The notes under the pieces were generated by a model. That model searched no databases. It saw only the letters and a program-made list of their open reading frames with translations, and was not told the DNA's origin. This document shows positions 2,836 through 53,157 of a stretch of DNA of 64,000 bases, piece after piece; the first letter of the stretch is position 1; each line of letters begins with the position of its first letter. The position numbers were made by a program, and so were the translations under genes. This DNA is from Mollicutes bacterium Phil14 (GTDB lineage Bacteria; Bacillota_I; Bacilli_A; ML615J-28; CAG-698), in assembly GCA_001940985.1 (NCBI GenBank), contig MSHB01000026.1:2215-66214 (forward strand). The letters run 5' to 3'.

Positions 2836-2850
2836 TTCTTTTTAAATTTA

Positions 2851-8770: not shown

Positions 8771-8772
8771 GT

Positions 8773-14036: not shown

Positions 14037-14045
14037 TAAATAATT

Positions 14046-14504: not shown

Positions 14505-14508
14505 TATC

Positions 14509-30871: not shown

Positions 30872-31202
30872 GATAGACGGAATTAAGTTTAGATCAAAAC
30901 TTGAAGCATATACATATAAAAAGCTGAAAGAAGTTAAACTCTATGCCGAATATGAATCATAGAAATTTGAGCTTCTTCCAGCTTTTACTTTTCAGGATAC
31001 TAAAGTAAGAGCTATTACTTATACTCCTGATTTTGTAGGAAAAGATTTCATTATCGAATGCAAAGGATTCCCTAATGATGCTTATCCTTTAAAAAAGAAA
31101 TTATTTGAGTATTACTTAGTTACTCATAATATAGATTATAAGTACTATGTAGTACATAACCAAAAAGAGGTTGATCAATTGATTGAATCTCTAAAACAAT
31201 AA
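30831..31202 (+). CDS. DUF1064-like PD-(D/E)xK nuclease with two in-frame TAG codons
   Basis: Missed by the track. MIqNKKVKNATKIEIDGIKFRSKLEAYTYKKL...YESqKFELLPAF...YTPDFVGKDFIIECKG... TAGs at 30837-30839 and 30960-30962. TAA at 31200-31202. Confidence 0.65.
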
Positions 31203-31207
31203 GAATT

Positions 31208-32008
31208 ATGTCAGAATTTATTAAAAGTGGAGATAGAGTAGTGCCAATGCCGCAAGGTTTAATGTATGACTTAGAACCTGGTAGAGTATATGATTTAAAA
31301 ATATATACTAGCTGGGGGGAAACAGTTGAAGCATTAACTTTAAATGGAGAATTAAATACTCCTAAAAAGGTATATGTCACTGATAAGGATGAGCAGTTTG
31401 TTAAAAGAGTTTTAAACGATTTTAATAATACAGCAAAGAATACTACAGGAGTATTATTAGTAGGTGAAAAAGGAACAGGTAAGACTGTAACTGCTAAATT
31501 ATTAGCAGAACGTGGAGGTTTACCTATTATTGTTATGAATCCTAAAACTGAGTTAGATAAAATAACAGGTTTCTTTAAGAAATTTACTACTCCAGTGTGT
31601 ATACTATTTGATGAAGTTGATAAAGAATTTGACACTTCTGAACTATTAACTTTCTTAGATGGATTACAAAAGACTTCTAAGAAATTAGTAATTATGACAG
31701 CAAATGATGAATATGAAATAGATAATTATCTTAAGAACCGATGTTCACGTATTAGATATTATCGTCAGTATAATATTAAAGACGATGCTGAAGAATATGC
31801 TAAACTTATATGTAAAGATAAAGGATTAGATAATGTAGACGAAGTAATAAAATTTATCTTAGATAAGATTTCTTGTCCATCTATTGATAACATTTTATCA
31901 TTTGTTGATGAAATACTTCTTACTAAAGAATATAATTTAACTTTAGATGAAGTGTTAGAATTTATGAATATTAATATAGTTGAGAATGATGAGAGTAAGT
32001 GCGATTAG
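31208..32008 (+). CDS. AAA+ ATPase
   Basis: Walker A GEKGTGKT, Walker B ILFDEVD, sensor-1-like VIMTAN. Ends TAG, immediately followed by TGA. Confidence 0.7.
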   Translation: MSEFIKSGDRVVPMPQGLMYDLEPGRVYDLKIYTSWGETVEALTLNGELNTPKKVYVTDKDEQFVKRVLNDFNNTAKNTTGVLLVGEKGTGKTVTAKLLAERGGLPIIVMNPKTELDKITGFFKKFTTPVCILFDEVDKEFDTSELLTFLDGLQKTSKKLVIMTANDEYEIDNYLKNRCSRIRYYRQYNIKDDAEEYAKLICKDKGLDNVDEVIKFILDKISCPSIDNILSFVDEILLTKEYNLTLDEVLEFMNINIVENDESKCD

Positions 32009-34194: not shown

Positions 34195-37100
34195 TTAGAA
34201 CATTAATTGATGTTCAAGATAATTACGTTTTGCTCGAACTGTCTATGGATCCCACATTTCAATTAATCCGTGTCCAGGAGATGCTTTAATGATATTACGT
34301 AACACTTTAGGAAATCCTTTATATGCACCACTCTTAACTGTAGCAAACGGATTACCATCACCAAAGTAGTTAGGAATCCATAGTACTTTTAACATATCTG
34401 ATCCAGTTTCAATAACATTTACTGCGGCAGAAGGAGAGTTAAGCAAAGAAGTTAATTCAAAAGGATTATACATAGTACGGAACTCAAAAGCCGTTCTCAT
34501 AGCTACATATGAAGCAGCTTGCAATGCTAAATTGTCTTTATCATCATCTGCTGCTGGAACTAATATTAAGCTTACTAATAACGATAATGCTACAATATTA
34601 CCTAATTCTAATATCACTTTTCTAACATTATACTTCTCATAATCAGACATACTATCATATGTAGCTATCATCTATTTTATTGCTAAAAATTTCTTTTTAC
34701 CAAATCCGCTTTTAATTACATCAGCCGCTGATTGATATAATCCTCTTTCTACTTCGCCAGTATTATAGTTAAATTGAGTACCTTTAAAACGATCTTCAAG
34801 TCCAACTATCATAAAGTTTCTATGCATTACTACAAACTGAGCATAAGCATTAGCGTGAATCTAAGCTCTATCTGTATCAGTTAACATACCATCTATTTTA
34901 CCTGCTAAGGTTTGAGCTTTGTTAGTAACTGCATTTTTAAGTTGTTCTGTTACTAAGTCTTTATATTCATCTAATACTACTAACTTATCATCTTTAATAT
35001 CATACGCATCGTATAACGTTGTTTTAAGCTCTTTCCAGGCACTTTCTCCAGCTTCCTTATTATCTGCATAATATTGAGATAAAAATTGATTCTTGGACAT
35101 GAATTTACCGTCATGTAACTTATAGTTATGATATACTGCTAGTAATACTTGAGATTTAACAGTAAAGTCACCAGCACTATAACCATTAAACCAGAAATGC
35201 TGATTTATAGCTCTCATTGTAGCAGACTGATCTAATCTATCAAATGTTTCCTCATTAGATCTACTTACTTGGTTAAGCTATAATAACATCATTATCTTAT
35301 TCTTATGATTTACATTACCTATATTAGTAACTACATCAGCATAATTAGACATTAATTCTTCTTTAGCAAATGCTATATCACTCTTGTCATAATATCTACC
35401 TAATATACCTTCTATATCAGTATATCCTTGACCAGTTACAAAGTTAGTCATAATAGCCCAAGGATTGAATGCAAGATTTACTTTAGTAACAAATTGATAT
35501 AAGCTTCCTAATGGTTTACTTATATCTCTTCCTCCTATCGTAGTAACATTTTTCTTCTATCCGTATAGATTCATATTAAGTAAATCCTAAGCTTTCTAGA
35601 ATGCACGTAATGTACCAGCAGCTTTCTACTTCTTACCGTCACGCATTTCTAATTGAGATAGTCTCTCAAGTATCATTTCTAGATCATATTGTACTTCAGA
35701 CATATTTCTAAAGTTTTCAGCCATATGATGATACATAATAACTGAACCAACTACATCAGAAGTAATTTTGGTAGGATCATCTAACATCCTCATATATCTA
35801 GTAGGTATATTCTTAATAGGAGATCCATCAGGTCTAGTAGAGTTACTTACATTATACTAACTATCATCGTCTTTAATAGTAAGATTATCTTTAAGTATAT
35901 ATTTGATATTATCTACAGTAAGACCACCTCTACTAAGTAATGTCATATCTCTAGCAGACATCTAAGGTAATTTATATTTATTAGAGTTTGATAAGAATGA
36001 TATTTTCTCATTACTCTATTCCATATCTTTAATTATGGCATCATATAATTCCTTAGCTGAACCTTTTATTTTATTAAATTCTTTTGAATTATCATAGAAT
36101 TCTTTCTTAGGTTGAATATATTCATCTTCATTAGTATTGAATTCATTATCGGCAAATGTAGAAGCTCCATCTAATTCTCTAAAGAATCTACCTGGTACTA
36201 ATCTAGAGTATTTAGACATATACTCATCTTTAGGTTTTAAATAAGTATATCTAGATACTGGAACCATATAACCACTTTGATTTTCATAATGATTTCTCTG
36301 GAACCAATTATCAAAATCAGTAGGTCCTAGATTCTTATATCTATTATAATCTTCGTAATATTGATCAGTTTTAGCTATTTCAGCAAATTCATTAAATTCT
36401 GTTTTTGGACCTTTTACTCTTAAATTAGCAATTTCTTGTTCAAGATCTCTTAATTCTTTTTGCTGTTTTTCTGATAGATCCATATATTCATTAGTAGTAT
36501 TAGGTAATCTATACATTTTAAGTAATTGTTTACGCTTATCTACTAATTTGTTATATTCTTCACTCTATTCAGCTCTTTCTAATTGAGCCAATCTTTCATA
36601 GAATTCATCTGTAAATTCAACTTGAGTATTATATTTTACCCAGTTCTAGAATTCCTTACTTTGTGCTCCGTATTTAGCTGATACCATAGAAGCAGCTTTA
36701 TTGAACTTAGCCATATTAGCTTTATAACTAAGTCCTTCTCCAGTTTTCTTGTAGAATTCTCTTAATTCCTAAGCAATCTGTAAATCTGTACCATCTTTCT
36801 TAGTACCATCATAGTAATATTCAGATGATAAATTCTCTTTTTCTTTAAGTAAAGCATCTAGATTGTTTCTATCTTTATCTGTCATTAATACTGATAAAAA
36901 TATATCACCTCTAGAATATCTATCTAATATATAATTTATCTCTTTCTATACTTCATCTAGAGCATTAACTGTTACTTCAGATAATTTGTTCTTTAGTTCG
37001 TAATATTCAGGAGTATATCTACGATGTGTATATTTAGCATACCATCTATTCATGCGTTTATTGTACTCCTATTTAGTAGAATAATCTGGGAATACTATAG

Positions 37101-38730
37101 ATCCATCTGTATCTATTTCTAATACCATATCTTTTATTACTTTGTCTTGATATGCTTTTTCATCTTGATACATCAAACCGTAGTTTAATGATCTAGTAAT
37201 ATATCCAGTAGGTAATCCATTTTTATCTTTTTCCTAGAACATAGTAGCTACATCCTATCCGAATTCTTCTTTTGCTTTCTTTAGTATGTTAACTAAACTC
37301 ATACCAGCATCATAGGTGTTCCTATTAGTCTTATTCTAAGTATTACGAAGTATATTTTCCATTATTCGTATTACTTCATTACTAGAGTTTGAAGACATTC
37401 CTATATAATATCCTAACCAACTTATATCATTCTTAGGATCTTCTAACCACTGTATCATATCTCCTACAAATGGAGATCCTGATCTAGTAGCATAATCTAC
37501 TAAGAATTCTCTAGTATTATGTTTTAGAATGTAATCAAACTTATCTTGTATCTATTGTAAACTACCTAAGTCAGCACTAACATTTGATACAAACTGTTCA
37601 TAATCTGGTAAATCGTTAAGAATATCAGTGTTATTGATAAGATAAGATACATCTTTCATCATAGGGTAATAGAAGTCTAAGTAATCATGTTTAAGCTAAA
37701 CTAATTGCTTAGAATTGATATTTGATATATCACCATTTAAGAATTGAATAGTAGTAGCCAAAGTATCTTCAACATGATCTACAAACTACATTACGGCTGA
37801 TTTAGAATCTGCTTTATTTAAATCATCTATTAATCTTGATATCTGTTGTTCTACTTCAAGATTACGTTTTCCGTATCTTTTTAAGGTATTTAATCTTGAT
37901 TTTACACCTTTGGTTATCTCTTCGTATAATTTATCTATAGATTCTGCATTTCTACTATAGAAATTATTTTGAAGATGCTATAGTACAGGAGCTTGTTTTA
38001 TAGCACTAATCTCTCTAAGATCCTATCTCGCTAAGTAAGCATTAGTAAGAATGTTCTTTAATTGTTCTTTATCATACTGTTTCCAACTATTATACTTATT
38101 TCTAAGCCAATTAACAAACTTATCCCACCAACTCCAAGCTTCACCTTTTTGCTTAACTGCTTGCTCACCAATAGCCTGTACTAAAGCTTCTTCACTACCC
38201 CATTTATTAATAGCTTCTTGAACAATCTCCGTATCTCTAAATGTATCAATATAATAGTGTGCATATTCATGAGGAATAGTATCTTCACTAGCTAACATAG
38301 CTATTATATCAATCTATTTCTGAGCTTTCATGAATCTACCTTTGAATTCTCCTTCTAAAGGTTTTGATTCAGCTTTAATATTTATGCTTATTTCAGGATA
38401 TAACTCTTTAAGTTTGTAGTATAGTTCATCCTATAACTCTACTACTCTATTCTATAACCAAGCTTCTCGTGCTTCTGCTGTAGCCTAGAATCCATCTGCT
38501 TTTAAGGATTCTTGATCTCTATAAAATCCCAATTTATCTTCAGAAGATGTTTTTTGATAGAACACTTCTTGTTGCTAGGTAAAAGAGCTAGCATCCTAAG
38601 ACGCTAACTCATAATTACCTTCATGCTTGTTCCAGAGATAATATGCAACATTCTCCCCAACTTTATCAACTAAAGTATCAAATTGTTCTTTTACTTCTTT
38701 TAAACTAAAATTTGGACAAAATACTTTCAT
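34195..38730 (-). CDS. 1511-aa late protein with HExxH motif (TAG read as sense, 30 TAGs)
   Basis: Frame-0 fragments 34243..34671, 34861..35217, 36016..36516 and 38023..38298 join through TAG only (checked codon by codon). ATG at 38730, TAA at 34195-34197. HEYAH at 38257-38271. Confidence 0.75.
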
Positions 38731-38732
38731 AA

Positions 38733-41700
38733 TTATTCTCCTTTACATTTGTTTTTAATTTGTTCACCTTCTTCGTTTGCTCTTCTGAATTCATCATTAT
38801 TAATGTCCGATTCTTCTGATAATACACCAATTGTTTTTTCATATACATCTCGAATCGCCTATATACCATCTTCAGATATATTTCTAGTACCAATTCCTGC
38901 AAAATTCTAAGTTAAAGTAGGAGTTTCTGATTCACTCCATTCTCCATCTATATTTTTGTACCATTTGTTAGTCTATTGATCAAATACATAAACAGGTTTT
39001 CCTTCCTGTATAGCCATTTCTACTGCGTATCCAGTTCCTCCAGTAACCATTTTATGTAGAGCTACTCTTGAATCATTTTTCTAATCAGGAAATGCTTTCT
39101 AACCAGACTATATCAAGTTTCCTATAGCATATATAGCATCTGAGTATTTTACCTATGCCCAATTTCTAATTAGTCTACTATCTTTCATTGTTGCATACTA
39201 ATATCCCCAGTTAGCTTTAGCAGCTTCAGCAACTTTGTATCTACCTTCTTCGTAGTCCTATTGAGTTATTTCAACGTTACCATTTGGACTATTGTACTAT
39301 GATCTTTCTCCACTATAATAATGATTTGAAGTTACTCCGTACTATTCTCCAATTTGTGCCCACATTGTATCAGATCCAAGAGCTCCTCCTGAATGATTAA
39401 CAAATCCGTTTAGTTCTGGTTCTTCTTGCATATAGTCATCTAAAGTTTTATCTGTTTCTACTTCTAGATCTTCTAACTTAGTATTATAAATACTATCGTA
39501 TGATTCTATAGACATTGAATCGAAACTTAACAACCCATTGTTACTATACTTTTCATTTAGTAAATCTACAATGTTAAGTCTAGCAGTTTCACTGTTATTA
39601 CTTATCGGGAATCTATTAAATGAGTAGTTATCGGTTCTACCATACTCAGTAATAGTATTACCTTGCATCTTATATCCCTTCTTATCTACTAAGTGATATA
39701 CTGGTATGAATTGAGTATTTCCAGAACGTCTGTGTTTCTATATTGCCATACCTGTTAATTCATATACCATAGTGTTATTAGGAGTATTTTCGTTAAAGTA
39801 TTTAATCTTAACATATGGAGGATATATCGGATATGTTGCTCCTAGAGCATCTGTTTTATATCCAATAGGTTTAATATCATCTCCTCTATAAGAGGTTCTC
39901 ATACCAACAAAAGTTTCTAATATAGGATATTTAATACCAGGTATTTCAGTATATGGGCTATCTATACCAACTAATCCATTATTAACTGTAACTAAAGCCA
40001 TATCTCCATCTTCATTACGTTGAAGTCTTTGAGATACTACATAGTACTTGATGGGCTTTACTAAATTATCATTCTACCAGTTGTTTAAAAATACCTCTTT
40101 CCAACTTATATTAGCAGAACCGTATTTAAATTGCTCTAATTGATGTTCTATATAATCTGCATAACCTATATCTCTTCTCATTTTGTTAGGTAAGTACTTG
40201 AAGAAATTATTCATACCTGCATTATCACCAGAAGTAATAAATGAATAGTAGATTAAATCTCTAGCAAATGTACTTACTTCAGGATCAACACTATCATACA
40301 GTTCTTGCCAGCTATCAATAATAGAATTCTATCCATTAACATCTTGATCAAACATTGAGTAAGTATCAATGAAGTCTGGTTTAGCAAATTTCTTTTCGTA
40401 TTTACCTATATTAGATATCAAGAAGTTAAGTAATGTATTGTTAAGAGTTCCATCAGGATTTAAATATCCTTTAAGTTTACCACTATATATCTTCTACTTA
40501 ATATCTACTAGCCTACTAGCCATAGAGTTTTCACCATACAATAAATCTTTAGCAGTAAGTCCTAACTCTTGCATCTTTTGATTAAAGAATTGAGATTTAA
40601 TAGCAGCTTGCATAGACCCTATAATAGGTTTTAATATCTTAGCATTAGCTGTAGTACGTCTATTTATCTTATCTAATATTAAATCCTATACGTCTAAGAA
40701 TGCCTAGGTATTTCTAATTAACTGATTTTCAAATAGTTTGTTACCAAAATGTATACTGTTTTCACGTTTAGTTTGTAAGAAAGTTTCATTATAAAATCTT
40801 CTTACTTCTCCTGCACCAAATAGTGGGTCAACAGTTAAGTCTTCCATTCCTATATCGTATACCCTTTGTTCTGCAAAGCTATTACCCATTCGTTTGGTAT
40901 CAATCTTAGAATACTTAACTAAATCAGACATTGATTGAGCATATTTACTTAGCTCTTTAAAAGCATAGTATATGTAAATCTACATAGTGTTATAATCAGG
41001 ATCTGTCTCAGACATATTCATTATATTTCTAAGGAAATCCTTCTTAAATAAATCCTTAAACTATATAGATTTAGCATAGTTATCACGCATTACTGCTTTA
41101 AATGCTTTAGATTCAGAACTATTTGGATCATACTTCTTTATTACTTCTTCTATAGCAGCATTTTCTCTTTGACTCTGAGTTAAGTGTTGATCTACTCCAT
41201 ATTTACCTCTAGTTTTTAATACTGCTTGTGCAATATCTTTCATTATAGGTTGATTAAGGAAATAGAATGTATTCTCACCTTTACCCATGCGTAACAGATA
41301 TGCTGTAATATTGTATGTATAAGCATTTACATTCAGTCTAGTAATGTACGGATCTTTAGCTATATCCACAAATGCATTAATCAAAGCTGATAACCAACTT
41401 AATACACGGGTTCTTTCACCACTTCTATTAGATGTAGCATCATCATATATCTTACCAGCATCTACTAAGTCTAAAGCTTTAGTGAACTCATTTTCTACCA
41501 TCTGTAAATGAGTAAGCTAAGTAAGAACATGATGAGCATTGTTCAACGCAAATGGTCCAATACCAGCTTTACCACTAGTATACTCTTCTTTCTTCTATGA
41601 TTGATATTTAGGAGAATATTGGAAGAATGGAGTAACATATTTAGTAGCTTGAATACTTTCAATATCTTTCAATACTGTTTTTACATTCTCAGTATCGTTA

Positions 41701-44700
41701 TCGATTGATATTTTAAGTTCATTAGTATGATCAGTAGTAAGAAGAACTTTTAAGTATTGATCTACTAAGTTGTTCTTATTCTAAGCTTCACTGTTTTCAT
41801 CATGAGTTTTAGAATGATCAAATTCTATCTTATTACCTTCTTTGTCATAAGCATATCTTGATATAAATAACTTATCGACGTCGAAGTCAGAACCAGTAAG
41901 TTTAGTAAATTCTTCAGGTAGTACTACTGTATCACCCATTATTTCAGGTAATACATCAACAAATCTTAATGCTGATATTGACGCTTGAGACTGAGTAGGG
42001 ATACGATAACCGATTGAATTAGCTGTAGAATTCTATCCTATTATATTATGGTCTATCAACCACTGTTTAGCTTGATTAAAAGTAAGTTTATTATAATTAG
42101 GTATTATATGCTTAAATAAGTTAATACTTACTATTGCATCCATACTACCTTCTTCATTAATCATCTTTAATGGTTTACCATCATTCAACATTAAATCGGT
42201 AATATATCTGCTATCATTTGCAGTAATGCCAAATGCTGATCTTTGAATGAATGAACCTCCTGGAAGATTAATATCTATAGTGTGTTTATTTATATAAGCT
42301 ATAAATCTACTCTCAATCCAACTATTCTCTGATAATGCTGATAATGGTAATGACATCTTACCATCTTTATAAGTAAGAGCATTGATAATGTTATCGTTAG
42401 CATCTTGAGTTTCAGCATCAGCTAATAGAGCTTTAGCTAGTTTCTCTTCATTAACACTACCATCAGGATTACATAATTCATTTTCTATAAACTTTCTACC
42501 TATATTAGATAGAGCATTCATAGAAGCAAATACCTCATTACGTATCTATTTTCCAGTGGATTCTTTATCTTTACCATATCTTTCTTTCATACCAAGATTT
42601 GATAAAGCTACTTTCTACATCTGAGTACCTAACATTGATTCCTCATGAGTGTGAGGATCTGTCTTTAACTGATGTCTTAGATATTTAAATGGTTGTTGAT
42701 AAGTAGTAAGTTTAGATAAATCTGCTATATTACCATCTTTAGTATAATAACTCTGAGCGTCTTGAGAACCAGCTTTAACTGCACTATTAAACAAAACCAT
42801 ATCGATATTACGTTCTTTCATAGTATCATAAAGAGCTTTCATATCTCCAGTAGCTACTTGTTTAAATAATGGGAACAATGCCATCTTATCAAAGTAAGGT
42901 ACAGCTAAATCATTCTGGAATCTATTACCAAATGCCATATATTTCAATGGTTTAAGTAAAGCAGAACGCATCTTATTATACAACTTAATATCATTCATCC
43001 AACTATCGTTATCAGATTCAATGATATTGTAAGCTTCTTCTTGTTCTACACCCCATTCACCAATCATACGCATCATATTACGATACATCTTAGGTGTTAC
43101 ATATACAGCTGCATCGGCTACATTTATGCCTTCAGCATAACCCGATGCCTCTTTTTCAGTAGCTATCTCAGCATATTTAACTGCTTCAGGATACTTCTAT
43201 ACTAATTCATCATGAGTAAGTTCTTGTCCTTCCTCATTAAATAAAGCATCTTGTCCGTATAACTGTTTAACTGCTGTTATCACATTACCTCTGAAGAATA
43301 AAGGTTTGATAGTTTCTATGTACATATCAGAACCTTTTTCAAAGTCCTTTAATTCAGTACATGTATATTCAGTAGGAACACCTTCTATATCTAATCTATT
43401 GTTAGTACCAGTAGATGTTAATGCACCTAAACGTTTGATCTTATCTATACTGTTTTCTACTAACCCATTCTCATTATAAGTCCATTTATAATAAGCAGGA
43501 TCGCCATTAAACAGCCTCTCTATTTCATTGATAGATACAATTGTATTAATAGTATTATCTGCTATAATATCAATTATACCTCTGGACAATGCTACATCAT
43601 TTACTTCTTGACCTGTTTGTAGATGTTTATAAGCTCTTTCGTACTGTTGTGAAAAGTCTATCAGTTTAGAACTAAATATTCCATTTGATACATCTATTAC
43701 ACCCAATTCAGCAGCATATGCTAGTTCATCTTCTATTCTCTTTTGTAACAATCTATTCATTATTCTAGCTTGTTCATTAGGAGTTTTATCGAAGAATTCT
43801 TTCTTAGCTAATTTGACTAGTTCTTTAGATGATTTCTTAGGATCAGATAAATCTATGTATACTTCTTTCCAATTACCATTTTCATCTCTCTGATAAGCGT
43901 ATAAACCAGTTAAGAACCTAAATCTAGTTCCATTAGGATCTACTTTATGTTTCTTACCATTCTTATCTGTATAAGATGAATCTGTATGATAATTCTTAAT
44001 CTTTTGATCTTGATTCAATGGTGGATGATATTCATTGTTTTCATCAGTATAACCTTCAAGTTGTTGTATACATTGTTCTACAGCAGCTAAATCTGAGTTT
44101 GCATACTGTATCATTTGATCTACACCATTGCTATCAAATGTCATTATTTCACCGAATCCTGGTATAGTTTGAATATTTACTGGATTGTGGAATAGTTTAA
44201 TACCTTTAATAGTATGATATGTTTTCTTATCAGCTATAGTTGGGAATAATATACGATCGTTAAGTATCAATGTCATTTTAGCAATATAATCTTCCTTAGT
44301 ATTGATACCAAAGTAGTCACTACCTGTATCATTGAATGATGAAGTCTTGAAGTTAACAAGTGTTTCAGCACTAAGTTGAACATTCTCATCTAACATTGCA
44401 TTTAATACTAATGAAGACTGATTGTATGGAACATTCTGTAATTGCATACGAAGTTCTTCATCCGTATTTAATTCACTAACACGATCTGTAGCAAAGTTAT
44501 TCTGTGATTTAGGATATAGTAGATTACCGCCAGCAGCATAACTTCTTAATTCATCTGTATTATTATGATACTGTACATAGTTATTAGCTAACTGTTTAAC
44601 AAATCCATTAGTAGGATATAATTCCTGAGTTCTAACGAACTGCAAATCAGTACCTCTACGTATTTCTAATCCATTCAAAGAAATATTCGGTTGTAAGAAT

Positions 44701-47700
44701 CTAGATAAGGTATTAAGTAGATTGTACATACCACCAAATGCTCTAGAATCCTAGGTAGTAAGGAACTAAGTTAATCTGTTCTTATCGTTACTTTCGGATG
44801 TACCATATACAGGTTCTTTTAATATAGTATCTATAGTTCCTACGTCTACAGTAATACCTAACATATTAAGAATCTTAACTATATCATCTTTAGCCTTAGC
44901 TATACCAAAAGGGGTATTTAAGTCATACGATTGATCTCTTACTACGTAAGGTTTGTTATCTACAAAAGCTTTTACTAACGAATTATATCTATTTATAAGT
45001 TGACGTAAAGTATTCTATCCTGTATTAGACCATTGTACATTACCATCCTTATCATAAGTAAATATAGATTCCTTCATTAACTATTGAGCCCATTGAGTAG
45101 GTATAACTCTAGATTTAATATCTACTGTATTATCTATAATATTTACAGTATTATTACCACTTTCTAATTCTTGAGTCTTAATAGTTAGGAATGTATGTAT
45201 ATGAGAATGAACTACACTATAAATCTAAGTAAGTAACACTTCAGCATCCATAGCTACTTTATGATCTTGACTCTTAGAATTAGTTATTACCTTATTCAGT
45301 TTATCTCTAACTGATGCGTACAATAAATTATTCTCTGCCAGCTTACTTACTTTCTGTTGTAATTCTAATATTGAATTACAATTGTGTAAATCATTAAGCA
45401 CTATATTCCAAGTAATAGTAGGATCAACAAATTGTGGTAAATTAGTAAGCGGATCTTTCTTTAGTACTACTTTACCTTCACTATTATAAGTATAAGCAGG
45501 TATTGTATTGAAGAAGAATTTAACAGCTGCGGGAGCATTATCATACAATGACGCTTCGTATGCAGCTTTAGTATGTTCACCTATATCATTATTACCATTA
45601 TCTCCAGCATCATTAGCCTATTCTTCAGCTTGAGCTTCTTTATTAATCATTTTAATCTAAATGTTACTAAGCTTCTTTGCTAAATCTTTAGCAAATACGC
45701 TGTTCCATTTATCGTATATCTCTTTAAATACTTTGTTATCACTACCTTTAAATAGATCTCTAACCTAATTTAAATCGATATTATCAACGTGATTAAATAT
45801 GTTTGATATTTTGTTTATATCAGATTGTAGTTTTAACTGCTAAGTAATAGTAATATATACTAAACTATTTAATATTTCATCATAAGCATAGCGAGTTGGG
45901 ATAGAACTCATTTCCTATCCTCTTACTTCAAAGTTAGCTCCTTCTGAGTATAACTTAGTAAACCTATCTATATTCTACTGATTAGGTTTAACATTAGCAA
46001 ACTTACCATAATTAATATCATAGTACAATTTAGCTAATTTTAAATTACCTACCTTACTCCAAACTTTAATAAAATTACGTATCTTTCTAAACCAACTTCT
46101 AGCTTGAAAGTCAGTATTTCTGATATTATCATCTAACATGAACTCTTTAAAGTCTTCAGCTAGTATTTCATCTATCTAAACATCAGAAAGATCTCTTCCA
46201 TATTTCTTTCTAGCTCTGCTGAATATAGCTTCACGTTTCTTCTCATTAATAAGTAAGTTAGATACTCTGTGCCATGCTTCATGATATTCTGTACCTTCTG
46301 GAGCTAATTCTGATAATGCTATAGAGTCTAATTTACTCTTACCTAATACATAAGTACCAGCTCTAGTAATCTCTATAACACTTTCAGATGTTTCAGTATC
46401 TACTCCTAATACTCTATTTATATATGACTTGGCGTGTTCCAGATTTATTTTATTATCTTGTAGAGTGGTAGTCGCATAATTTGCTCCAGGTTCTAGATCT
46501 GAGAATAAATCATCTAATGATACTGAGGAAGTTGGATCAGCTTTCTGTTCTGTAGGAGCTTCTTCAGTAGCTACATCAAATTGATTAGAAGCTACTTTAT
46601 CTACTAATGCTGCATCTTTGAAATAAGTACTAGCATTTCTTAATCCTATAGTATTAGTTTGTATTATACCTTGATGTATATACCAACCTAGCATACTTAT
46701 ACCTTTAGGGTATTTAGGATTATTTACAAATTTATCTCCTTGTTTAGCTAATCCTACTTGTTCTAAAGTAAACTCAAGTTCACCAGGAACTATAGTTAAT
46801 TTATCTGTTTTATTAGTTAAGAACCAAGCTCTAAGACCGTTAAATGGGTTACCTTCAGCACGTGCAGCTCCATAATAATTAAATAAAGCATTAGATTCTA
46901 CTCTGAATGTTAGATTATTCATTATATAATCTAAAGCTTGCTATCTAGTAACTGGATCTGAATTCAGTTTTGCAATGTTGAATACATTACTACCAAGTAT
47001 TAAGTTACCTTCTGTATCTAATGAGAACTGTTTTCTAATACGAGCTTGTCTTTGTTCTTCGCTATATCTATCTCCAAGATTTCCTACTAAAGTATCTGGT
47101 CCACTGTATACTAACATGTCCAGTAATTGTTGAGGAGTAAATGGAGTTCTAACATTCCCTATAGTTACATTGGTATCTTTAGATAATATCAAATCTAATA
47201 CTAATTGTGCTATACCAGGTTTATCTCTAAAGGTTGCAACACTTGATTGTGCTATAGCGTATTTAACTTCTGTACTTTCATTATGTTTGACAGGTATTGC
47301 CCACATAGGTTGACCTAACCAACTACCGTTACCTCTTACTACTAATCCAGCAATACGTATCTGACCATTAGGACCTCCAGTAGCTATACCTATTCTAGTA
47401 TTGTCTGCAGTAATATCCATTGGAGATAATGATTGATTCCATAATGGAGATTGATTAATTGGCATTCTAGAATCTGAATTAACAAATAATCCATTAGTTC
47501 TAGCTAATCCAATTAATTGTATTTCCTTATTAGGATCTTGTTTTACTTGCTTTATCATCTCTCTCAGTTTATCCAGTAATTGGACATTTGATTGAGACGG
47601 TAACATTTTAGTTTTTATATCCTTACCTTTGTAATGGAATGTAACAATTATATCTCCATCTACTTCATCTACAGTAATAGTAGAATCGGTAATGAAGTCA

Positions 47701-50700
47701 GGTTTAACTGAGTTTTCTATATAGTCTTTATTCTCCTCAAATGTAGCACCAACTATCCCATCTAATTGTGCATCTTGAGTTCTACTATATGATATTATTT
47801 TACTCTTAACAGATTCAGATTGTTGTTGTGATTCAATAGAATCTAATATCTCATCAATCTATTGACTTATACTATTTATTCTATTTACTATAGGAGTAAG
47901 CCTTCTACCATCTTCTACATCGAATATACCATTGATAAGACTATCTCTATTAGATATTAAATCGTCATATAAAGTAAGCAACTTATTTTGTTCTTCAGTA
48001 AGAGGTTCTTCTTGTAAAGCATCAAGATCTTGTTCTAAGAAGTATCTATCTCTATTATTAGTATTATATTTCCAAGAATTATCAGGATTAATTAATTGAT
48101 CTAGTATAGCTGGAGTTAATGCTTTATATACTTTAGATACTTCATCGTTCGCTCTTTGAATTGCTCTACCGTATGAATTATCAGTAAACTATTGATCCGG
48201 TTGCATACTTAATTCTTCATCTGTGTATGCATCAGGATTCTATAATTGAGCTCTAGTTTTATCTAACGATCTCTGTGATTTGTTAACCTTCTTCTATCCA
48301 ATAGTTACCTTCTTACTTCTTTTTTCGATTATCTTATTTCTAAGATCGTCTAATTCTTTCTGTTGTTGATTATCTATTTTAGCTTGATTCTTCTATTCTA
48401 CTTCTATTGCCTATTCTATAGGTTTTTCTTCAGTAGATATAGGAGTTTCTTCAACATGTTTAGTTTCCTATTCTTGATCTTTAACATCAGGAGTAGGTTC
48501 AGGCTTTTCTTCTATCTAAGCAGGAGGTGTTTCTATTATAGGTTCTATTTCAGGCTTAGTTTCAGACTTAGGTGTATCTTGTACCTCTGGAGTAATAACT
48601 TCAACTGGTTCAGGATTTACTGGTTCAGGTATAGGATCTTCTTTTATTTCAGTAGCTACGGTAGGCTGTTCTAATGGAATAACTTGTGCATCCTACTAAC
48701 TTATACCTTCATGAGCATCTTGAATTCTTTCTTGAAATTCTATATCATCCTTCTCAGCTTTAGTCATCTTATTCAGTCTAGATTGAATCTCTTTTACATT
48801 AGCATTACCTAACTTCTTACTATCGAATCCTAGATCTTTAAGAGCATTCTAAGCACGAGTTACTTCTATATAATGAGGTATAAACGATTCATACGCATCA
48901 GCTATTTCATCAGATGCAGATAACAATTGTGTATCTTCTTCTGCTAATTCCTATCCGTCTACGTACTTATTTAAAGTCTTAATACGATCATCAATAATCT
49001 TAGTTACTTCATCAATATCTAACTTATTAGTAGTAATACCTAATTTACCTAGTTCTTCACTATCTTCTTTGATATTATCAAACGCTTGTTTGTATTTCTA
49101 TAAAGCTTTAAGTTCACTAAGACCTCTAATCATATTAATCATAGCTTGCTTAGATTCTGCTGCCTTAGGATCTTCTCTATCTATTACATAAGTATTAAGA
49201 TAATCTTCTAATTGAGATTCGTCAATCTTTATATCTAAGTCTCTTACAGCTTGATCATATGTATCTCTAGCATCATTGTACATTTGATTATAGTAATCTA
49301 CCATAGATACTAATCTGTTGTACTCTTCACTGTTTGTATTGATGCCTAATTTATCTGTAGCTAACGTTTGTAGTGCTTTACTATTAGCAAGAGTCATAAC
49401 TCTAGCAGCTCTCTTCTTTTCAGCATCTATCATATCAGCATCAAATCCTTCGATACCTTTTAATTTATCAAAAGATTCTAATACTTGTCTAGTCTTACCT
49501 CTTACTGCTTTATCTGCATAATATTGATTCTTACGTAATAGATCTTTTTCGTACAGTCTATCAGTCATAGCCATCTCTGATACAAACTTATCAGCTGCCA
49601 TCTGTTTAGATGTCTATACTGCTCCACCTATAGTTCTAATAGAGCCAGTCATCAACATACCAAGTAAGCTACCACCTCTTGCATTCTCTAACCATTCTGG
49701 GTCAGACGATAATGCTGTATCCCACGGAGCATAGAATGAGTATAATGATTTAGTACCTTGACCTAAGTTATTAAGTACACTATCAAATATAGTATGATCA
49801 TCACCATACTTCCCTTGCATATATCTTTCACCATTCAAGTACTGATTACTCTCTTCCATCATTTCTGATGCTGAAGAAATCATTGTTCTAGTAGGTACAT
49901 CCAATATATAGTTACGTAAAGTACGTCTAGATAATCCTTCTACTGTTTTGGCTTTACCAAAATTAGTCAAATCGGTTATACGATGTCTTAATCCTTCATA
50001 CAACTGTTCACTCTTAGTAGCTAACTTCTTGGCTTTATTTCCTAATTTACCTAACTTAGCTAATGAACCAATCGGTAATATGATCATTGCTGTTTCTAAA
50101 GCTTCACTGCCCATAACAGCCACCATATCGTCTTGATATAATTGATTAAGTCCTTTAAATGCAGATAATCTATTCTAATCAAATTTAGGATCTTCTACAT
50201 CGATAGAACCACTTAATATTAAATCTAGTTTCTCATCATCAGTAAATTGAGCATACTGAGGATTAGAGTTTACTTTACTTAATATCTTACTTAAAGATCC
50301 GTCTGCTTCACTTAGTTGTTTTACTTGATCTCGGTAATGCTGATACATTTCAGCTTTATTCTCTTCAGTAGCCCCATACATACCCAAACCAAAAGTACTA
50401 GCTGCTCCTAATGCACCAACTACAAGTGGTGCAGCAGTACCTCCAGTTAATCCAATAGCAGCGGAAGTTCCTAAACCTACTGTCCATGCAGCAAGTGTAG
50501 TCTTCCAAGAAGAAGAAGAAGATCCAATTAAACCAGGTACTCCATATAAATAAGTATCTACATCAGTAAAATCTAAATCATTATCCTACTGCTTCTATTC
50601 AAAATAAGAACTTAATTTATGTTTATTCTTCCAATGTTCATTAGCCTGTTGATATTCTTGAACATCTGCTGCATTACTATCTATTTCTTGATTTAAGTAA

Positions 50701-51287
50701 TCGTTATATTTCTATAACATATCATACTTAGTATCATCAGATACTCTAGTAAATCCTTTTAAAGATGGAGCAGTACTGAATAGATTCATATCTTCTGATT
50801 CCATTACTATCTTTTCATAACTAGGACGTAATTCTCTATTACGTTCTATTAATTGTGATAGCATGTTTCTTTTATTAGGATCTGCATTTAAATCAGGATC
50901 TCCCTATAATTGAGAAATCTATTGAGCATTAGATACGTATTCATAAGAGTTATTTACATCATCTCTCTTCTATTGGAGATTAATAAGATCTGCTCTTCTA
51001 CTATCTATATTAGTATCATTCTATTTTACTTTCCAGTCAGTAAAAGCATCTTTTAAATAATCCATAACTCCATAATCATTAGGAGCTTTACCTTGAGCTT
51101 CTAACATCTAGAACTTCCACGGATCATCTTCTACATCCTAAGTACTAATATTACTAGCATCGATATAATTAAATCTGCCATTATAATCAACAGGTGCAGA
51201 TACTAATGGAGTCTGATACGATTGTTGTATCAGACTATTCATTATTGCTTCTTTAACTGGATCTATTTGTTTCTTCTTCTTTGCCAT
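38733..51287 (-). CDS. giant 4184-codon multidomain protein including an RNAP-like DPBB (TAG read as sense, 63 TAGs)
   Basis: 18 same-frame track fragments from 39342 to 50387 join through TAG only. ATG at 51287-51285, TAA at 38733-38735. Motifs: GYRIPTQ...LTGSDFDVDKL (DFDVD at 41874-41888), HEAWH at 46269-46283, and HSGGALGSD near the C-terminus. Confidence 0.75.
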
Positions 51288-51289
51288 AA

Positions 51290-53155
51290 TTATTGTCTTG
51301 TGAACGTTCTAATTGTCATGTCAGTTCTATCACCAGCGTTAACGCTTGTACCAAAATATCCTTTGTTAACTCCTAAACTTACGTTATCTACTGTGTAATC
51401 ATCATTAGATAGTGGTACATATACTTCAAACCTCATTTGTTTAGTATCAGAATCATATTCACCATTTAATGCTTTTACTGCCTGTTCTACATCTGTACCA
51501 TTAAATATACGTTCAGCTCCCTTAGGTATCCACATTAATGGATAAGTTAGAGTAGTAAACCAGCTTTCTTCATCTACGTCTGGTACTACAGCCGTTCCTT
51601 TCATGTATAATCTAGTATTTCCAGGAGCATAAGGGTCTGCTACAGATAATACTCTACCACTAGGTATTATTGATAAATCTTTAGCTCCAGATGTAATAGT
51701 TTTAATTAACTCATTATCTGCTCCAGGTATTTTGCCCTACATGTTAAGTAAACTAGCAGCTAATTGTTGAGGTAACAATACATCAGCTCCATTTTTAACA
51801 ACCGCTTCTCTTTTACCTAACGGACTTGTAACTTCAGTTCTAGCTCCAGTTAAATATTTAGTTATAGCAGCATCAGATTTACTATTAGTATCGTACCCAC
51901 TTCCACTCATATTATCAATCAAGTCTTGAGATACTTTATTAAATTTCTGAGCATCTACTTTGCCTTTAAAATTATTAAAATCTTCAGGTTTAATAGAACT
52001 ACCATACATGTTAGCAAACTCTTTTCTATTTACTGTAGCCTGATGTTGTCTAGCTTGCTAACTAGCTTTATCTATAATAGAACTTAGTTGTTGTAATTGT
52101 TCTGGAGAAGCCCCTCCATTTATAGCATTCTGATATTCTTCCATAGCTTGAGTAGCAAGGGAAGTATATTGAAGAGCTTTTGTTTGGTCTTCTTTATAAT
52201 CTGCTCTAGTAGGGTCTTGTATGTTCTTTCTAGCGTATCTATTAAAATCCTTATTAACGGAGTTTGTAAATTTCTCATAATCTGTCAAATAGGATTGAGT
52301 TTGACTATCAGCTCCAGCGCCTGTCATTCTAGCTTTAGCGTTTAATACTGCCATCTATAAAGAATAAGGATCCACTGTTTCAGTAGGCCTAAGAGTTTTG
52401 TCTATATTAGCAGCTACTATCATGTCTTTAAACATCTGTTGTGCTAAAGCAGGATCTCCTCCAGCTCTTTGTAACATCTGTTTATAATACATCTGACCTT
52501 GTGGAGTATTTATCAAATCACTTTGATGAGCTTCTGCTACTGCACGTAAGTCCCCTTCAGTATTACCTACTCTATTATATCTAATTCCATTACGATATAC
52601 AGGATCTAATGCTCCAGGTTTAAGATTATCAAAGTATTGCTTACTTAATTCAGCAGCTGACATGTATGGAACAGGATTTAAATCATCGAATACTTTATTG
52701 TTTCCTAAAGTATCGTAGTTACTAAAATCAACATCATGCCATTCAGGATTGTATCTTCCATTTAATAGTAACTATTGATTTAACTTCTATCTCTATACCA
52801 TAGCGTCTCTACTCTATTGTAGTTTAGCTAATTCTGCATATGGTCTACTATTAATGAAAGCTTGCATCTCCTATCTACCTGTAGCGGTTTTCAACAAGTC
52901 TGGATTCTATGCAAACTTCATAGCAATTTCTTTTGCTGGTTCGATAGTTAATTCATTATATCTCTGCATATCTATTGCAGAAGGAGATTGAAATTCACGC
53001 CACTTACTGAGATTATTACTAAATTCTTGTTGAGCCTAATCTACTCTATTGTTGTATTCTCTACCTACTTGATATAACTAATCAAATGGTATTGGTACAT
53101 ATTGACTAACATACTGATAGTCACTAGGTTCATAATATCTATTTACTGATGCCAT
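51290..53155 (-). CDS. 621-aa late virion-module protein (11 TAGs)
   Basis: Frame-1 fragments 51290..51604, 51737..52009, 52058..52354 and 52355..52663, plus the upstream part, join through TAG only. Starts MASVNRYYEPSDYQYVSQYVPIPFDq... Confidence 0.7.
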
Positions 53156-53157
53156 AA

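What the first reader, a model, noticed from the sequence alone, without database searches (positions are those of the whole stretch)
38733..51287. A single 4184-codon ORF fusing several functions, including the RNAP-like barrel
Once TAG is read through, one uninterrupted frame runs from ATG 51287 to TAA 38733, with 63 TAGs and no TAA or TGA.

Features in order along the protein:
- Gly/Ala-rich hydrophobic segment (about 50400-50520)
- P/E/T/K-rich linker (about 48363-48662)
- HEAWH zincin-type motif (46269-46283)
- RNAP beta-prime-like DPBB with DFDVD (41874-41888)
- DprA/SLOG-like C-terminus

CrAss-like phages are known to encode very large virion-packaged proteins, including an RNAP that is injected into the host. 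As far as I recall, a single polypeptide of this length combining these modules is at the extreme end. It may be proteolytically processed, and the internal HExxH is a candidate for that.
Basis: partly seen in the sequence, partly recalled or inferred. Interest (0 to 1): 0.65.

Follow-up and report, generated by a model that had tools for sequence, protein, structure and literature searches.

The report
Giant crAss-phage injected RNA polymerase gene
This 4184-codon gene is real and encodes the giant protein that a crAss-like gut phage packs into its particle and injects to start transcription; such fused, TAG-recoded giants are already a known hallmark of these phages, so it is an ordinary new member and not an extreme case.

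Summary
On the minus strand, ATG 51287 to TAA 38733 is one frame of 4184 codons with 63 TAG and no TAA or TGA. Chance would give about 1e-113. Contigs from four public runs cover it without any indel.

TAG reads as glutamine. TAG codons align with Gln in homologues as often as CAA/CAG codons do, including at near-invariant Gln positions.

- The DFDVD region matches the solved phi14:2 gp66 virion RNA polymerase (E=3e-42).
- The HEAWH lies in a module conserved across crAss-like phages (crAss001 gp47, E=6e-18).
- The C-terminus belongs to a widespread ~200-aa DprA-like family.

The "extreme end" claim fails. RefSeq relatives carry the same fusion (cr109_1 4328 aa, cr114_1 4272 aa, p-crAssphage gp44 4070 aa). 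Of 146 library representatives, 120 fuse the HExxH module to the polymerase. Their median length is 4178 aa and the maximum 6581 aa. The literature already describes such fusions and suggests the zincin may cleave them.

Verdict: a new, divergent member (at most 46% identity) of a known kind. The most interesting side result is that the same C-terminal domain also sits inside an unrelated N4-like virion polymerase.

The parts
38733..51287 (-). Whole ORF: 4184 codons plus TAA, 63 TAG read as Gln, predicted mass 475 kDa
   Evidence: TAG=Gln; contigs without indels
48693..51287 (-). N-terminal module (aa 1-865). About 29% identical to the N-termini of cr109_1 gp53 and cr114_1 gp021, with no family assignment. 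Inferred to be the membrane-active / ejection part, like phi14:2 gp65.
   Evidence: BLASTP 68-903; no Pfam or PHROG hit; 25 of 146 representatives share it
50367..50549 (-). Gly/Ala-rich hydrophobic segment (aa 247-307). The hydropathy peaks lie at aa 275-306, giving glycine-zipper-like candidate membrane segments. A second hydrophobic stretch lies at aa 388-407.
   Evidence: Kyte-Doolittle 19-aa windows above 1.4
48363..48692 (-). P/E/T/K-rich low-complexity linker (aa 866-975). The region aa 903-1237 does not align with relatives.
   Evidence: composition; alignment gap
46518..48362 (-). Middle region (aa 976-1590). Conserved only in close Suoliviridae relatives, from aa 1237 onward. Function unknown.
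45888..46517 (-). Conserved HExxH (zincin-like) module, aa 1591-1800. HEAWH is at 46269-46283. The candidate third ligand, Glu1707, is at 46167-46169.
   Evidence: tblastn and BLASTP to crAss001 gp47 (E=6e-18); Y-H-E-x-x-H and E1707 invariant or at least 90% conserved; AF2 model of the 56%-identical surrogate P0121 shows strands, then the HExxH helix, then the Glu helix; Foldseek against PDB negative
45573..45638 (-). Acidic low-complexity stretch EAQAEEQANDAGDNGNNDIGEH (aa 1884-1905). Inferred junction between the gp65-like and gp66-like parts, and a candidate processing site.
   Evidence: pLDDT below 50 at the equivalent residues 357-374 of P0121; spacing to the C-terminus of crAss001 gp47. 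This is an inference only.
43788..45572 (-). N-terminal region of the polymerase part (aa 1906-2500). By position it corresponds to gp66 residues of about 1-810. It is conserved in most fused homologues.
   Evidence: 'post' segment present in 91 of 146 representatives; gp66 residue 811 aligns with aa 2508
39528..43787 (-). Virion RNAP core (aa 2501-3920): both double-psi beta-barrels, the connector, the catalytic DFDVD (41874-41888), and the bridge-helix and trigger-loop region
   Evidence: phmmer against 6VR4, E=2.8e-42; aa 2701-3163 align with gp66 950-1404 and aa 3133-3396 with gp66 1453-1708; gp66 domain limits
38808..39437 (-). C-terminal DprA-like (SLOG-type) Rossmannoid domain, aa 3951-4160. 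Motifs: SGGALGSD (39369-39392) and GGTGYAV (39021-39041). 11 TAG codons.
   Evidence: PHROG 768, E=1.9e-4; 704 homologues at 60-66% identity; invariant motifs; AF2 model with pLDDT 92.9; weak Pfam DprA hits in 3 of 38 members; BFVD hits; PDB Foldseek negative
34195..38730 (-). Downstream separate gene, 1511 aa: orthologue of phi14:2 gp67, crAss001 gp49 and the C-terminal part of p-crAssphage gp44. Strong transmembrane helix near aa 1372-1390. Its own HEYAH at aa 154-158 (38257-38271).
   Evidence: BLASTP to phi14:2 GenBank gp076, E=2e-20; to the p-crAssphage gp44 C-terminus, E=1e-5; 38% identity to cr109_1 gp52 and cr114_1 gp020
51290..55344 (-). Two upstream late genes (621 aa at 51290-53155; 728 aa at 53158-55344, with a Gly-rich hydrophobic stretch). 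By position they are the cargo / ejection proteins that precede the RNAP block.
   Evidence: same gene order in cr109_1, cr114_1 and phi14:2; crAss001 cargo proteins gp45 and gp46 (PMC10172136); no PHROG assignment

Best explanation
This is the late, TAG(Gln)-recoded gene for the virion-packaged, host-injected transcription protein of a Suoliviridae-like crAss phage.

It joins in one 475-kDa chain what phi14:2 encodes as two proteins:
- The gp65-like part: an N-terminal region with Gly-rich hydrophobic segments, a variable linker and a conserved HExxH module.
- The gp66-like part: a single-chain RNA polymerase with two double-psi beta-barrels and the catalytic motif DFDVD.
- An added C-terminal DprA-like accessory domain.

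The third partner (gp67-like, 1511 aa) is the next, separate gene.

Mechanism:
- Shown: the frame, TAG read as Gln, homology of the modules, and synteny.
- Established for cultured relatives: phi14:2 gp65, gp66 and gp67 and crAss001 gp47, gp49 and gp50 are virion proteins. gp66 is injected with the DNA and transcribes early genes.
- Inferred here: the protein can be completed only once TAG is decoded. That probably relies on a phage tRNA(CUA) lying outside the window, as in cr109_1. The protein is stored as capsid cargo, extruded partly unfolded through the tail, refolds, and transcribes the standard-code plus-strand block.
- Open: whether the chain stays intact or is cut near aa 1884-1905 by its own HExxH module. 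I put this at about even odds.
For: - Frame and chance.
- No indels in four runs, and mostly synonymous variation.
- TAG=Gln: TAG at aa 4045 aligns with Gln in 38 of 38 homologues. Across 27 TAG columns in 60 homologues, Gln makes up 19.2%, against 18.0% at CAA/CAG columns and 3.6% background. At aa 3436 Gln is found in 57 of 58.
- RNAP: 6VR4 E=2.8e-42, with DFDVD on DFDID and coverage of both barrels, the bridge helix and the trigger loop. Val at motif position 4 is as in other crAss RNAPs.
- HExxH module: crAss001 gp47 E=6e-18, with a conserved YHExxH...E.
- gp67-like neighbour.
- Same architecture in RefSeq cr109_1 gp53 and cr114_1 gp021, with 69-70 in-frame TAG.
- 120 of 146 library representatives carry HExxH plus RNAP in one chain.
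- Virion and injection biology.
- tRNA(CTA) in cr109_1 just upstream of TerL.
Against: - No tRNA with a CUA anticodon is present in the 64-kb window or in the 2.2 kb beyond its left end.
- No protein-level data exist for this phage, and no Suoliviridae member has been cultured.
- The N-terminal 1600 aa have no detectable similarity to phi14:2 gp65. 'gp65-like' therefore rests on position, the HExxH module and the match to crAss001 gp47.
- Foldseek found no solved-structure match for the HExxH or the C-terminal model.
Confidence: 0.85

Rival explanations
1. Polyprotein reading. The chain is cut, by its own HExxH module or by the prohead protease, into a gp65-like and a gp66-like product (and perhaps a free C-terminal domain), during assembly or after injection. 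Cleavage also frees the polymerase from self-inhibition.
For: - Drobysheva et al. propose this for fused forms and note that gp66's cleft-blocking N-terminal part may be 'refolded or cleaved'.
- Gene boundaries in other phages fall on either side of the HExxH module (crAss001 gp47 ends about 125-240 aa after it; P0233 and P0245 start about 190-220 aa before it). The pieces can therefore work as separate proteins.
- A disordered acidic stretch at aa 1884-1905 sits at the expected junction.
- HExxH and Glu are at least 90% conserved.
- The same module occurs with ART-PolyVal and other effector domains in polyvalent-type proteins.
Against: - No cleavage-site motif or proteomic data exist.
- N4 vRNAP (3500 aa, also with an HExxH subdomain) is described as a three-domain 'beads-on-a-string' chain, and the passages read report no cleavage.
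- The metallopeptidase fold is not confirmed against PDB.
Confidence: 0.45
2. Intact-chain reading. The 475-kDa protein is packaged and injected uncut, like N4 vRNAP. The HExxH module then acts on something else, such as peptidoglycan or a host protein, or is only structural.
For: - The fusion is the majority architecture (120 of 146), which suggests that working in cis is tolerated or favoured.
- N4 precedent of membrane NTD + RNAP + CTD with HExxH.
- Drobysheva et al. also suggest peptidoglycan digestion.
Against: The same as for the polyprotein reading, reversed: the modules are separate genes in cultured relatives.
Confidence: 0.4
3. Artefact reading. The long frame is a mis-assembly or a decaying gene, or TAG is a true stop so the region encodes dozens of small ORFs.
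For: Under code 11 the region breaks into fragments of at most 518 aa. No suppressor tRNA lies in the window.
Against: - P of about 1e-113 for the TAA/TGA-free frame.
- Four independent assemblies without indels, and 34 of 40 variants synonymous.
- TAG aligns with invariant Gln.
- Colinear homologues of 4272 and 4328 aa.
Confidence: 0.02

Closest known systems
cr109_1 gp53 (YP_010112503.1, Buchavirus splanchnicus, Suoliviridae; 4328 aa, annotated 'DprA-like DNA recombination-mediator protein') and cr114_1 gp021 (YP_010112977.1, Aurodevirus; 4272 aa, 'hypothetical protein')
   Same: - Same position in the late block, followed by a gp67-like gene.
- 69-70 in-frame TAG.
- HEAWH and DFDxD conserved.
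- Colinear alignment: 42% identity over aa 1237-4153 (cr109_1) and 1237-3892 (cr114_1), and 28-29% over aa 68-903.
- cr109_1 also has the C-terminal DprA-like domain.
   Different: - Only 42-46% identical, so this is a different genus or higher taxon.
- The linker region aa 903-1237 does not align.
- The cr114_1 C-terminus does not align with the DprA-like domain.
Cellulophaga phage phi14:2 gp65 / gp66 / gp67 (GenBank gp078 / gp077 / gp076); gp66 structure PDB 6VR4
   Same: - Same order of three virion proteins.
- The gp66 RNAP core aligns at E=2.8e-42 with the catalytic motif in register.
- gp67 aligns with the downstream ORF at E=2e-20.
   Different: - Three separate genes of 1797, 2180 and 1421 aa under the standard code.
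- No detectable similarity between gp65 and the N-terminal 1600 aa here.
- No DprA-like domain.
p-crAssphage (Carjivirus communis) gp45 'RNAP associated protein fused to zincin protease' (1957 aa) and gp44 'RNAP catalytic subunit fused to unknown RNAP subunit' (4070 aa)
   Same: - Same colinear module order.
- A polymerase protein of comparable size.
- The gp44 C-terminus is homologous to the downstream ORF here.
   Different: The gene boundary is placed differently. There the polymerase is fused to the gp67-like part and the zincin part is separate. Here the zincin part is fused to the polymerase and the gp67-like part is separate. p-crAssphage uses the standard code.
Coliphage N4 vRNAP gp50 and the N4-like Klebsiella phage Pylas vRNAP (Schitoviridae)
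   Same: - A giant single-chain injected polymerase with a membrane-associated N-terminal part and an HExxH-bearing subdomain.
- Pylas vRNAP carries the same DprA-like domain at aa 983-1160 (E=2e-56).
   Different: - The catalytic core is an unrelated T7-like single-subunit RNAP.
- The HExxH lies C-terminal of the polymerase, and the crAss profile does not match it.
- Module order differs.
Polyvalent proteins of phages and conjugative elements (Iyer et al. 2017, PMC5512222; 2022, PMC9503650)
   Same: A large multidomain protein encoded in the late, virion-protein gene block, combining a metallopeptidase-type module with enzymatic domains. Homologues of the HExxH module co-occur with ART-PolyVal (12 of 70), PD-(D/E)XK and Zeta-toxin/AAA_33 domains.
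   Different: No Pfam polyvalent-protein model hits this protein. The core cargo here is an RNA polymerase, not a set of anti-restriction effectors.

Membership tests
crAss-like virion RNAP (phi14:2 gp66 type, single chain with two double-psi beta-barrels) | Significant sequence similarity to gp66 across both barrels and the connector | tested here: met
   phmmer against 6VR4, E=2.8e-42. aa 2701-3163 align with gp66 950-1404, which spans the connector 1095-1238 and both flanking barrels.
crAss-like virion RNAP (phi14:2 gp66 type, single chain with two double-psi beta-barrels) | Catalytic DFDxD motif with Ile or Val at position 4, aligned with gp66 1361-DFDID-1365 | tested here: met
   DFDVD at aa 3134-3138 aligns with DFDID. 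The Ile/Val rule is stated.
crAss-like virion RNAP (phi14:2 gp66 type, single chain with two double-psi beta-barrels) | Bridge-helix and trigger-loop region conserved | tested here: met
   aa 3133-3396 align with gp66 1453-1708, which covers 1529-1559 and 1598-1636, including the NAFVD-AKDPYI block.
crAss-like virion RNAP (phi14:2 gp66 type, single chain with two double-psi beta-barrels) | Located at the end of the late block between cargo genes and a gp67-like gene | tested here: met
crAss-like virion RNAP (phi14:2 gp66 type, single chain with two double-psi beta-barrels) | Packaged in virions, injected, and Mg-dependent rifampicin-resistant RNA synthesis | not testable with these tools
   Known only for phi14:2 and crAss001.
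Zincin-like metallopeptidase module of crAss gp65 / crAss001 gp47 proteins | HExxH conserved across homologues | tested here: met
   HEAWH in the window, cr109_1 and cr114_1. H, E and H are invariant in 7 sequences and at least 90% conserved in 70. crAss001 gp47 matches at E=6e-18.
Zincin-like metallopeptidase module of crAss gp65 / crAss001 gp47 proteins | Third metal ligand on a downstream helix (gluzincin pattern) | tested here: inconclusive
   Glu1707 (33 residues between the HEAWH motif and the Glu) is invariant or at least 90% conserved. It lies on helix 168-184 of the AF2 surrogate model. No coordinates were available to measure the site geometry.
Zincin-like metallopeptidase module of crAss gp65 / crAss001 gp47 proteins | Zincin fold recognisable against solved structures or curated profiles | tested here: not met
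   - No Pfam hit.
- No PDB sequence-profile hit.
- Foldseek against PDB: best E=0.33.
- The model core has pLDDT 80-95, but the whole 527-aa model has pTM 0.50. A small subdomain could therefore have been missed.
Zincin-like metallopeptidase module of crAss gp65 / crAss001 gp47 proteins | Peptidase activity and its substrate | not testable with these tools
   -
DprA-like / SLOG superfamily Rossmannoid domain | Profile match to a DprA or SLOG family | tested here: inconclusive
   - PHROG 768 'DprA-like', E=1.9e-4.
- Pfam gives nothing for the window protein.
- PF02481 hits 3 of 38 homologues, best 2.2e-4; YAcAr, cpYpsA and LDcluster4 hit single members at E of 0.1 or weaker.
- NCBIfam dprA hits 1 of 38 at 0.054.
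DprA-like / SLOG superfamily Rossmannoid domain | Gly-rich loop after strand 1 and a GGxG-type loop before a late helix | tested here: met
   S-G-G-A-x-G-x-D and G-G-T-G are invariant in 38 homologues. The AF2 model places them after strand 28-31 and before helix 146-155. That these motifs match DprA and LOG signatures is from my own knowledge and was not tested.
DprA-like / SLOG superfamily Rossmannoid domain | Structural similarity to solved SLOG members (DprA, YpsA, LOG) | tested here: not met
   Foldseek against PDB with a model of pLDDT 92.9: best E=0.35, TM at most 0.27. BFVD gives only weak matches to 'DprA-like' (E=0.07) and to a molybdenum cofactor carrier (E=0.14).
DprA-like / SLOG superfamily Rossmannoid domain | Fusion partners typical of viral SLOG domains (NADAR, DUF4326, SF1 helicase) | tested here: met
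   Homologues carry PF08719, PF14216, PF18760 and PF13538/PF01443. This matches the pattern described in PMC9503650.
TAG-to-Gln recoded late genes of crAss-like phages (code 15) | In-frame TAG confined to the late block and aligned with Gln in homologues | tested here: met
TAG-to-Gln recoded late genes of crAss-like phages (code 15) | Phage-encoded suppressor tRNA(CUA) | tested here: not met
   None in the window or in L007. About a third of the genome is not in the window. cr109_1 has one just upstream of TerL. The review notes that only about 40% of TAG-recoded genomes have one.

The most novel reading that the evidence does not exclude
The C-terminal DprA-like domain may be a mobile accessory module recruited again and again to injected polymerases:
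- It ends 13 of 146 crAss zincin-RNAP fusions.
- It sits between the N-terminal domain and the catalytic core of an unrelated N4-like vRNAP (Klebsiella phage Pylas, E=2e-56).
- It is 60-66% identical to free-standing ~200-aa phage proteins, while the rest of the chain is at most 46% identical to anything known.

If the link is functional, the domain acts in the first moments of infection. It could work as a counter-defence enzyme or sensor for NAD/ADP-ribose-derived immune signals, as Iyer et al. predict for viral SLOG domains. Or it could be a single-stranded-DNA handling aid for virion polymerases, which prefer single-stranded or hairpin templates.
Probability: 0.3. Interest if true: 0.55.

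Novelty: new member of a known kind. Interest (0 to 1): 0.25.

Why it matters
It adds a divergent, well-supported example from an uncultured Suoliviridae-like lineage to the known family of giant crAss transcription proteins.

Three points go slightly beyond routine annotation:
- It shows that fusion of the HExxH module to the polymerase is the common state of this family in metagenomes, not an oddity.
- Comparison with phi14:2, crAss001 and p-crAssphage shows one fixed module order with gene boundaries that move. [quoted passage not shown]
- It gives a concrete construct for testing whether the HExxH module cuts the chain: the HExxH module plus the acidic stretch at aa 1884-1905.

The shared DprA-like domain in two unrelated injected polymerases is a small but testable lead.

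Tried and rejected
- Pfam on the whole protein: nothing above noise.
- PHROGs: only the C-terminal domain hits. PHROGs on the neighbouring genes gave nothing useful.
- BLASTP of the N-terminal 2500 aa, and of the HExxH segment, against phi14:2 gp65: no significant match. The HExxH segment against p-crAssphage gp45 gave only marginal hits.
- BLASTP of aa 1700-2635 against the crAss001 gp50 N-terminus: weak (E=0.016). The fusion junction could therefore not be mapped by alignment.
Surrogates P0003 (65% identical) and P0121 (56-57% identical) were folded instead.
- Foldseek against PDB failed for both models. PDB sequence-profile searches also failed. NCBIfam was uninformative.
- The crAss HExxH profile does not detect the HExxH of an N4-like vRNAP. 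I therefore rejected the idea that the two are detectably homologous.
- Search for the suppressor tRNA beyond the window:
  - The contig at the left end adds 2.2 kb and has no tRNA.
  - A look-up by a right-end ORF found nothing.
  - An exact-word scan of IMG/VR found nothing.
- Loci L003-L005 were not exported to the scripting machine. They were compared through the pairwise tool instead.

Full report
**1. The observation**

The reverse complement of 38733-51287 is 12555 nt. It begins with ATG and ends with TAA, and holds 63 in-frame TAG and no other TAA or TGA. With the window's composition (31% G+C), TAA or TGA is expected at 0.060 per codon. A 4184-codon stretch free of both therefore has a probability near 1e-113. 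About 79 TAG would be expected at random, and 63 are seen.

The whole minus-strand block from 34195 to about 63600 behaves the same way. It breaks into fragments under code 11 and opens into long ORFs (1516, 4196, 627, 747, 1428 codons and so on) when TAG is sense. The plus-strand block 5263-34106 is already open under the standard code.

**2. Is the frame an assembly artefact?**

No. Four public runs from one study hold this sequence, and their contigs tile 38000-52000 with no gaps. One run carries a single 29.6-kb contig that differs by 106 substitutions and no indel. Two other runs are identical where they cover it.

Of the 40 substitutions listed, 33 are at third codon positions and 34 are synonymous. 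The six replacements are conservative. That is the signature of a translated frame under purifying selection.

**3. TAG is glutamine**

In the C-terminal domain, the TAG at aa 4045 aligns with a Gln that is invariant in 38 of 38 homologues.

Across the HExxH-to-polymerase region I aligned 60 diverse homologues. At the 27 TAG columns they carry Gln 19.2% of the time. This compares with 18.0% at columns where the window uses CAA or CAG, and 3.6% overall. At aa 3436 Gln is found in 57 of 58, and at aa 3257 in 49 of 59.

No tRNA with a CUA anticodon lies in the window or in the 2.2 kb recovered beyond its left end. The closest annotated relative, cr109_1, has one just upstream of its terminase gene. 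By synteny, that position lies beyond the right end of this window.

A review notes that only about 40% of TAG-recoded genomes have such a tRNA. It also notes that recoding in crAss-like phages is mostly confined to late genes (PMC10136315).

**4. What the protein is**

The region aa 2508-3400 matches the solved virion RNA polymerase gp66 of Cellulophaga phage phi14:2 (PDB 6VR4) with E=2.8e-42.
- aa 2701-3163 align with gp66 950-1404. This covers both double-psi beta-barrels and the connector, with DFDVD on the catalytic DFDID.
- aa 3133-3396 align with gp66 1453-1708. This covers the bridge helix and the trigger loop (domain limits from 10.1101/2020.03.07.982082).

The HEAWH sits in a module of about 200 aa, which is the only part of the N-terminal half conserved across crAss families. 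It matches crAss001 gp47 ('RNA-polymerase subunit', a virion cargo protein) at E=6e-18. YHExxH and a Glu that follows the motif after 33 intervening residues are conserved in at least 90% of 70 homologues.

The next gene (34195-38730, 1511 aa) is the orthologue of phi14:2 gp67 (E=2e-20).

So the phi14:2 trio gp65 (zincin), gp66 (RNAP) and gp67, all of them virion proteins, is present here in the same order, with the first two fused: 1797 + 2180 aa in phi14:2, against 4184 aa here including about 235 aa of extra C-terminal domain.

In p-crAssphage the boundary lies elsewhere. gp45 is 'RNAP associated protein fused to zincin protease' (1957 aa). gp44 is 'RNAP catalytic subunit fused to unknown RNAP subunit' (4070 aa). 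The C-terminus of gp44 is homologous to the downstream gene here (E=1e-5).

The module order is therefore fixed while gene boundaries move.

**5. Is it exceptional?**

No.
- RefSeq cr109_1 gp53 (4328 aa, 70 TAG, annotated 'DprA-like DNA recombination-mediator protein') is colinear with this protein. It is 42% identical over aa 1237-4153, including the C-terminal domain, and 29% over aa 68-903.
- cr114_1 gp021 (4272 aa, 69 TAG) is similar.
- An exhaustive HMMER search used P0121, a 56%-identical surrogate of aa ~1540-2060. It found 569 relatives among 1.84 billion cluster representatives.
- Among the 146 best new representatives, median length is 4178 aa and the maximum 6581 aa. 72 are at least 4184 aa long.
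- 120 of them carry the HExxH module and the polymerase in one chain, and 13 also end with the DprA-like domain. None includes the gp67-like part.

[quoted passage not shown] It gives sizes 'up to ~6000 aa' (PMC10136315). [quoted passage not shown]

It remains untested.

**6. The HExxH module**

No curated profile or solved structure recognises it.

An AlphaFold model of P0121 (70-sequence alignment, mean pLDDT 72.9, core 80-95) shows a small sheet followed by the HExxH helix and a later helix carrying the conserved Glu. That is the order expected for a gluzincin. Foldseek against PDB found nothing (best E=0.33), so the fold assignment stays inconclusive.

Homologues of the module co-occur with ART-PolyVal (12 of 70), PD-(D/E)XK and Zeta-toxin/AAA_33 domains. 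This ties it to the 'polyvalent protein' theme of virion-delivered multidomain proteins (PMC5512222, PMC9503650).

A disordered acidic stretch (aa 1884-1905, pLDDT below 50 in the surrogate) lies where the gp65-like and gp66-like parts should meet. It is my candidate junction or cleavage site. This is an inference only.

**7. The C-terminal domain**

aa 3951-4160 belong to a family of at least 704 proteins. Most are free-standing proteins of about 200 aa and are 60-66% identical to this domain. The rest of the chain is far less similar to its nearest relatives.

Invariant motifs are SGGAxGxD and GGTG. A model of the 65%-identical P0003 is confident (pLDDT 92.9) and has alternating strands and helices.

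Support for DprA/SLOG membership is weak but consistent:
- PHROG 768, E=1.9e-4.
- Pfam DprA in 3 of 38 members.
- BFVD matches to 'DprA-like' (E=0.07) and to a molybdenum cofactor carrier (E=0.14).
- Fusion partners NADAR, DUF4326, ART-PolyVal and SF1 helicase, as described for viral SLOG domains.

Foldseek against PDB found nothing, so I call membership probable, not shown.

The same domain is embedded at aa 983-1160 of the N4-like virion RNAP of Klebsiella phage Pylas (E=2e-56). That enzyme has an unrelated catalytic core.

Within this ORF the domain has the highest TAG density: 11 in 210 codons, or 69% of its Gln codons. It has therefore evolved for some time in a recoded genome.

**8. How it most likely works**

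Established for relatives:
- phi14:2 gp66 enters the cell with the DNA and transcribes early genes. Host RNAP transcribes middle and late genes.
- crAss001 virions hold gp47, gp49 and gp50 as capsid cargo. These proteins must pass through the tail partly unfolded (PMC10172136).
- N4 vRNAP is a single 3500-aa chain made of a membrane-spanning N-terminal domain, a polymerase and a C-terminal domain with HExxH (PMC13434306).

Inferred here:
- The 475-kDa protein is made late, once TAG is decoded.
- It is packed in the capsid and extruded at infection. Its Gly-rich hydrophobic N-terminal part may help at the membrane.
- It refolds and transcribes the standard-code plus-strand block.

Whether it is cut is open. 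I put processing at about 0.45 and the intact chain at about 0.40.

**9. Verdict**

The ORF is a new, divergent member of a known kind. It is ordinary in size and architecture for its family.

Interest is low to moderate. The recurrent DprA-like domain on two unrelated injected polymerases is the one lead worth an experiment.

Noticed in passing
window 7933-8060 (+): Full-length Hatchet ribozyme (RF02678, 95.3 bits against a gathering score of 51), directly downstream of the ORF 7306-7911.
   Followed up: no
window 12652-12916 (+), next to tRNA-Ile(GAT) at 12958-13030: Permuted tmRNA (RF04321, 55.1 bits against a gathering score of 47). ARAGORN also calls a permuted tmRNA at 12621-13007 with tag peptide GNTSYVTDYTRIAA. 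A phage-borne tmRNA in a genome that reassigns a stop codon may be worth a look.
   Followed up: no
window 1-64000; L008 (cr109_1) 11608-11687: The window has tRNA-Ile(GAT), tRNA-Arg(TCT) and tRNA-Trp(CCA) but no tRNA(CUA), although its whole late block is TAG-recoded. cr109_1 has a tRNA(CTA) just upstream of TerL, a position that would lie beyond the window's right end.
   Followed up: partly
window 8767-9336, 14040-14504, 14488-14955, 31187-32008 (+): Four plus-strand ORFs end in TAG and gain only a few codons if TAG is read through. TAG therefore appears to be a stop in the early block and a sense codon in the late block. I did not check whether these ORFs are real genes.
   Followed up: no
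window 38257-38271 (-), within ORF 34195-38730: The gp67-like downstream protein has its own HExxH (HEYAH, aa 154-158) in a variable N-terminal extension. cr114_1 gp020 has HEMLH at aa 186. cr109_1 gp52 lacks most of the extension and has no HExxH.
   Followed up: partly
window 51285-51292 and 38728-38735 (-): Both junctions of the giant gene read TAATTATG: the stop of one gene, two bases, then the start of the next, in a different frame.
   Followed up: no
window 38808-39437 (-): TAG density is 5.2 per 100 codons in the C-terminal domain, against 0.8-1.4 in the segments from aa 976 to 3920 (mid region through the RNAP core). TAG makes up 69% of the domain's Gln codons.
   Followed up: partly
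L006 (Klebsiella phage Pylas) 8986-9519, vRNAP aa 983-1160: The same DprA-like domain is inserted between the N-terminal domain and the polymerase core of an N4-like virion RNAP. This protein also has HELIH at aa 2520, as does the N4 CTD.
   Followed up: yes
NC_055884.1 (cr126_1) 8146-9561: The RNAP gene of cr126_1 is annotated 'DUF1768 domain-containing protein' (NADAR). Other crAss polymerase giants may therefore carry a different ADP-ribose-related accessory domain (from the annotation only).
   Followed up: no
proteins P0316 (6320 aa) and P0318 (6581 aa): The two largest relatives appear to hold two copies of the HExxH module (HExxH at about 750 and about 2500), followed by the polymerase and the DprA-like domain.
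   Followed up: no
window 217-1095 (-); L007 10001-12039: The ORF at the left end of the window is a Thy1 thymidylate synthase (PF02511). The next-but-one gene downstream has a dGTP_diPhyd_N hit (PF18909).
   Followed up: no
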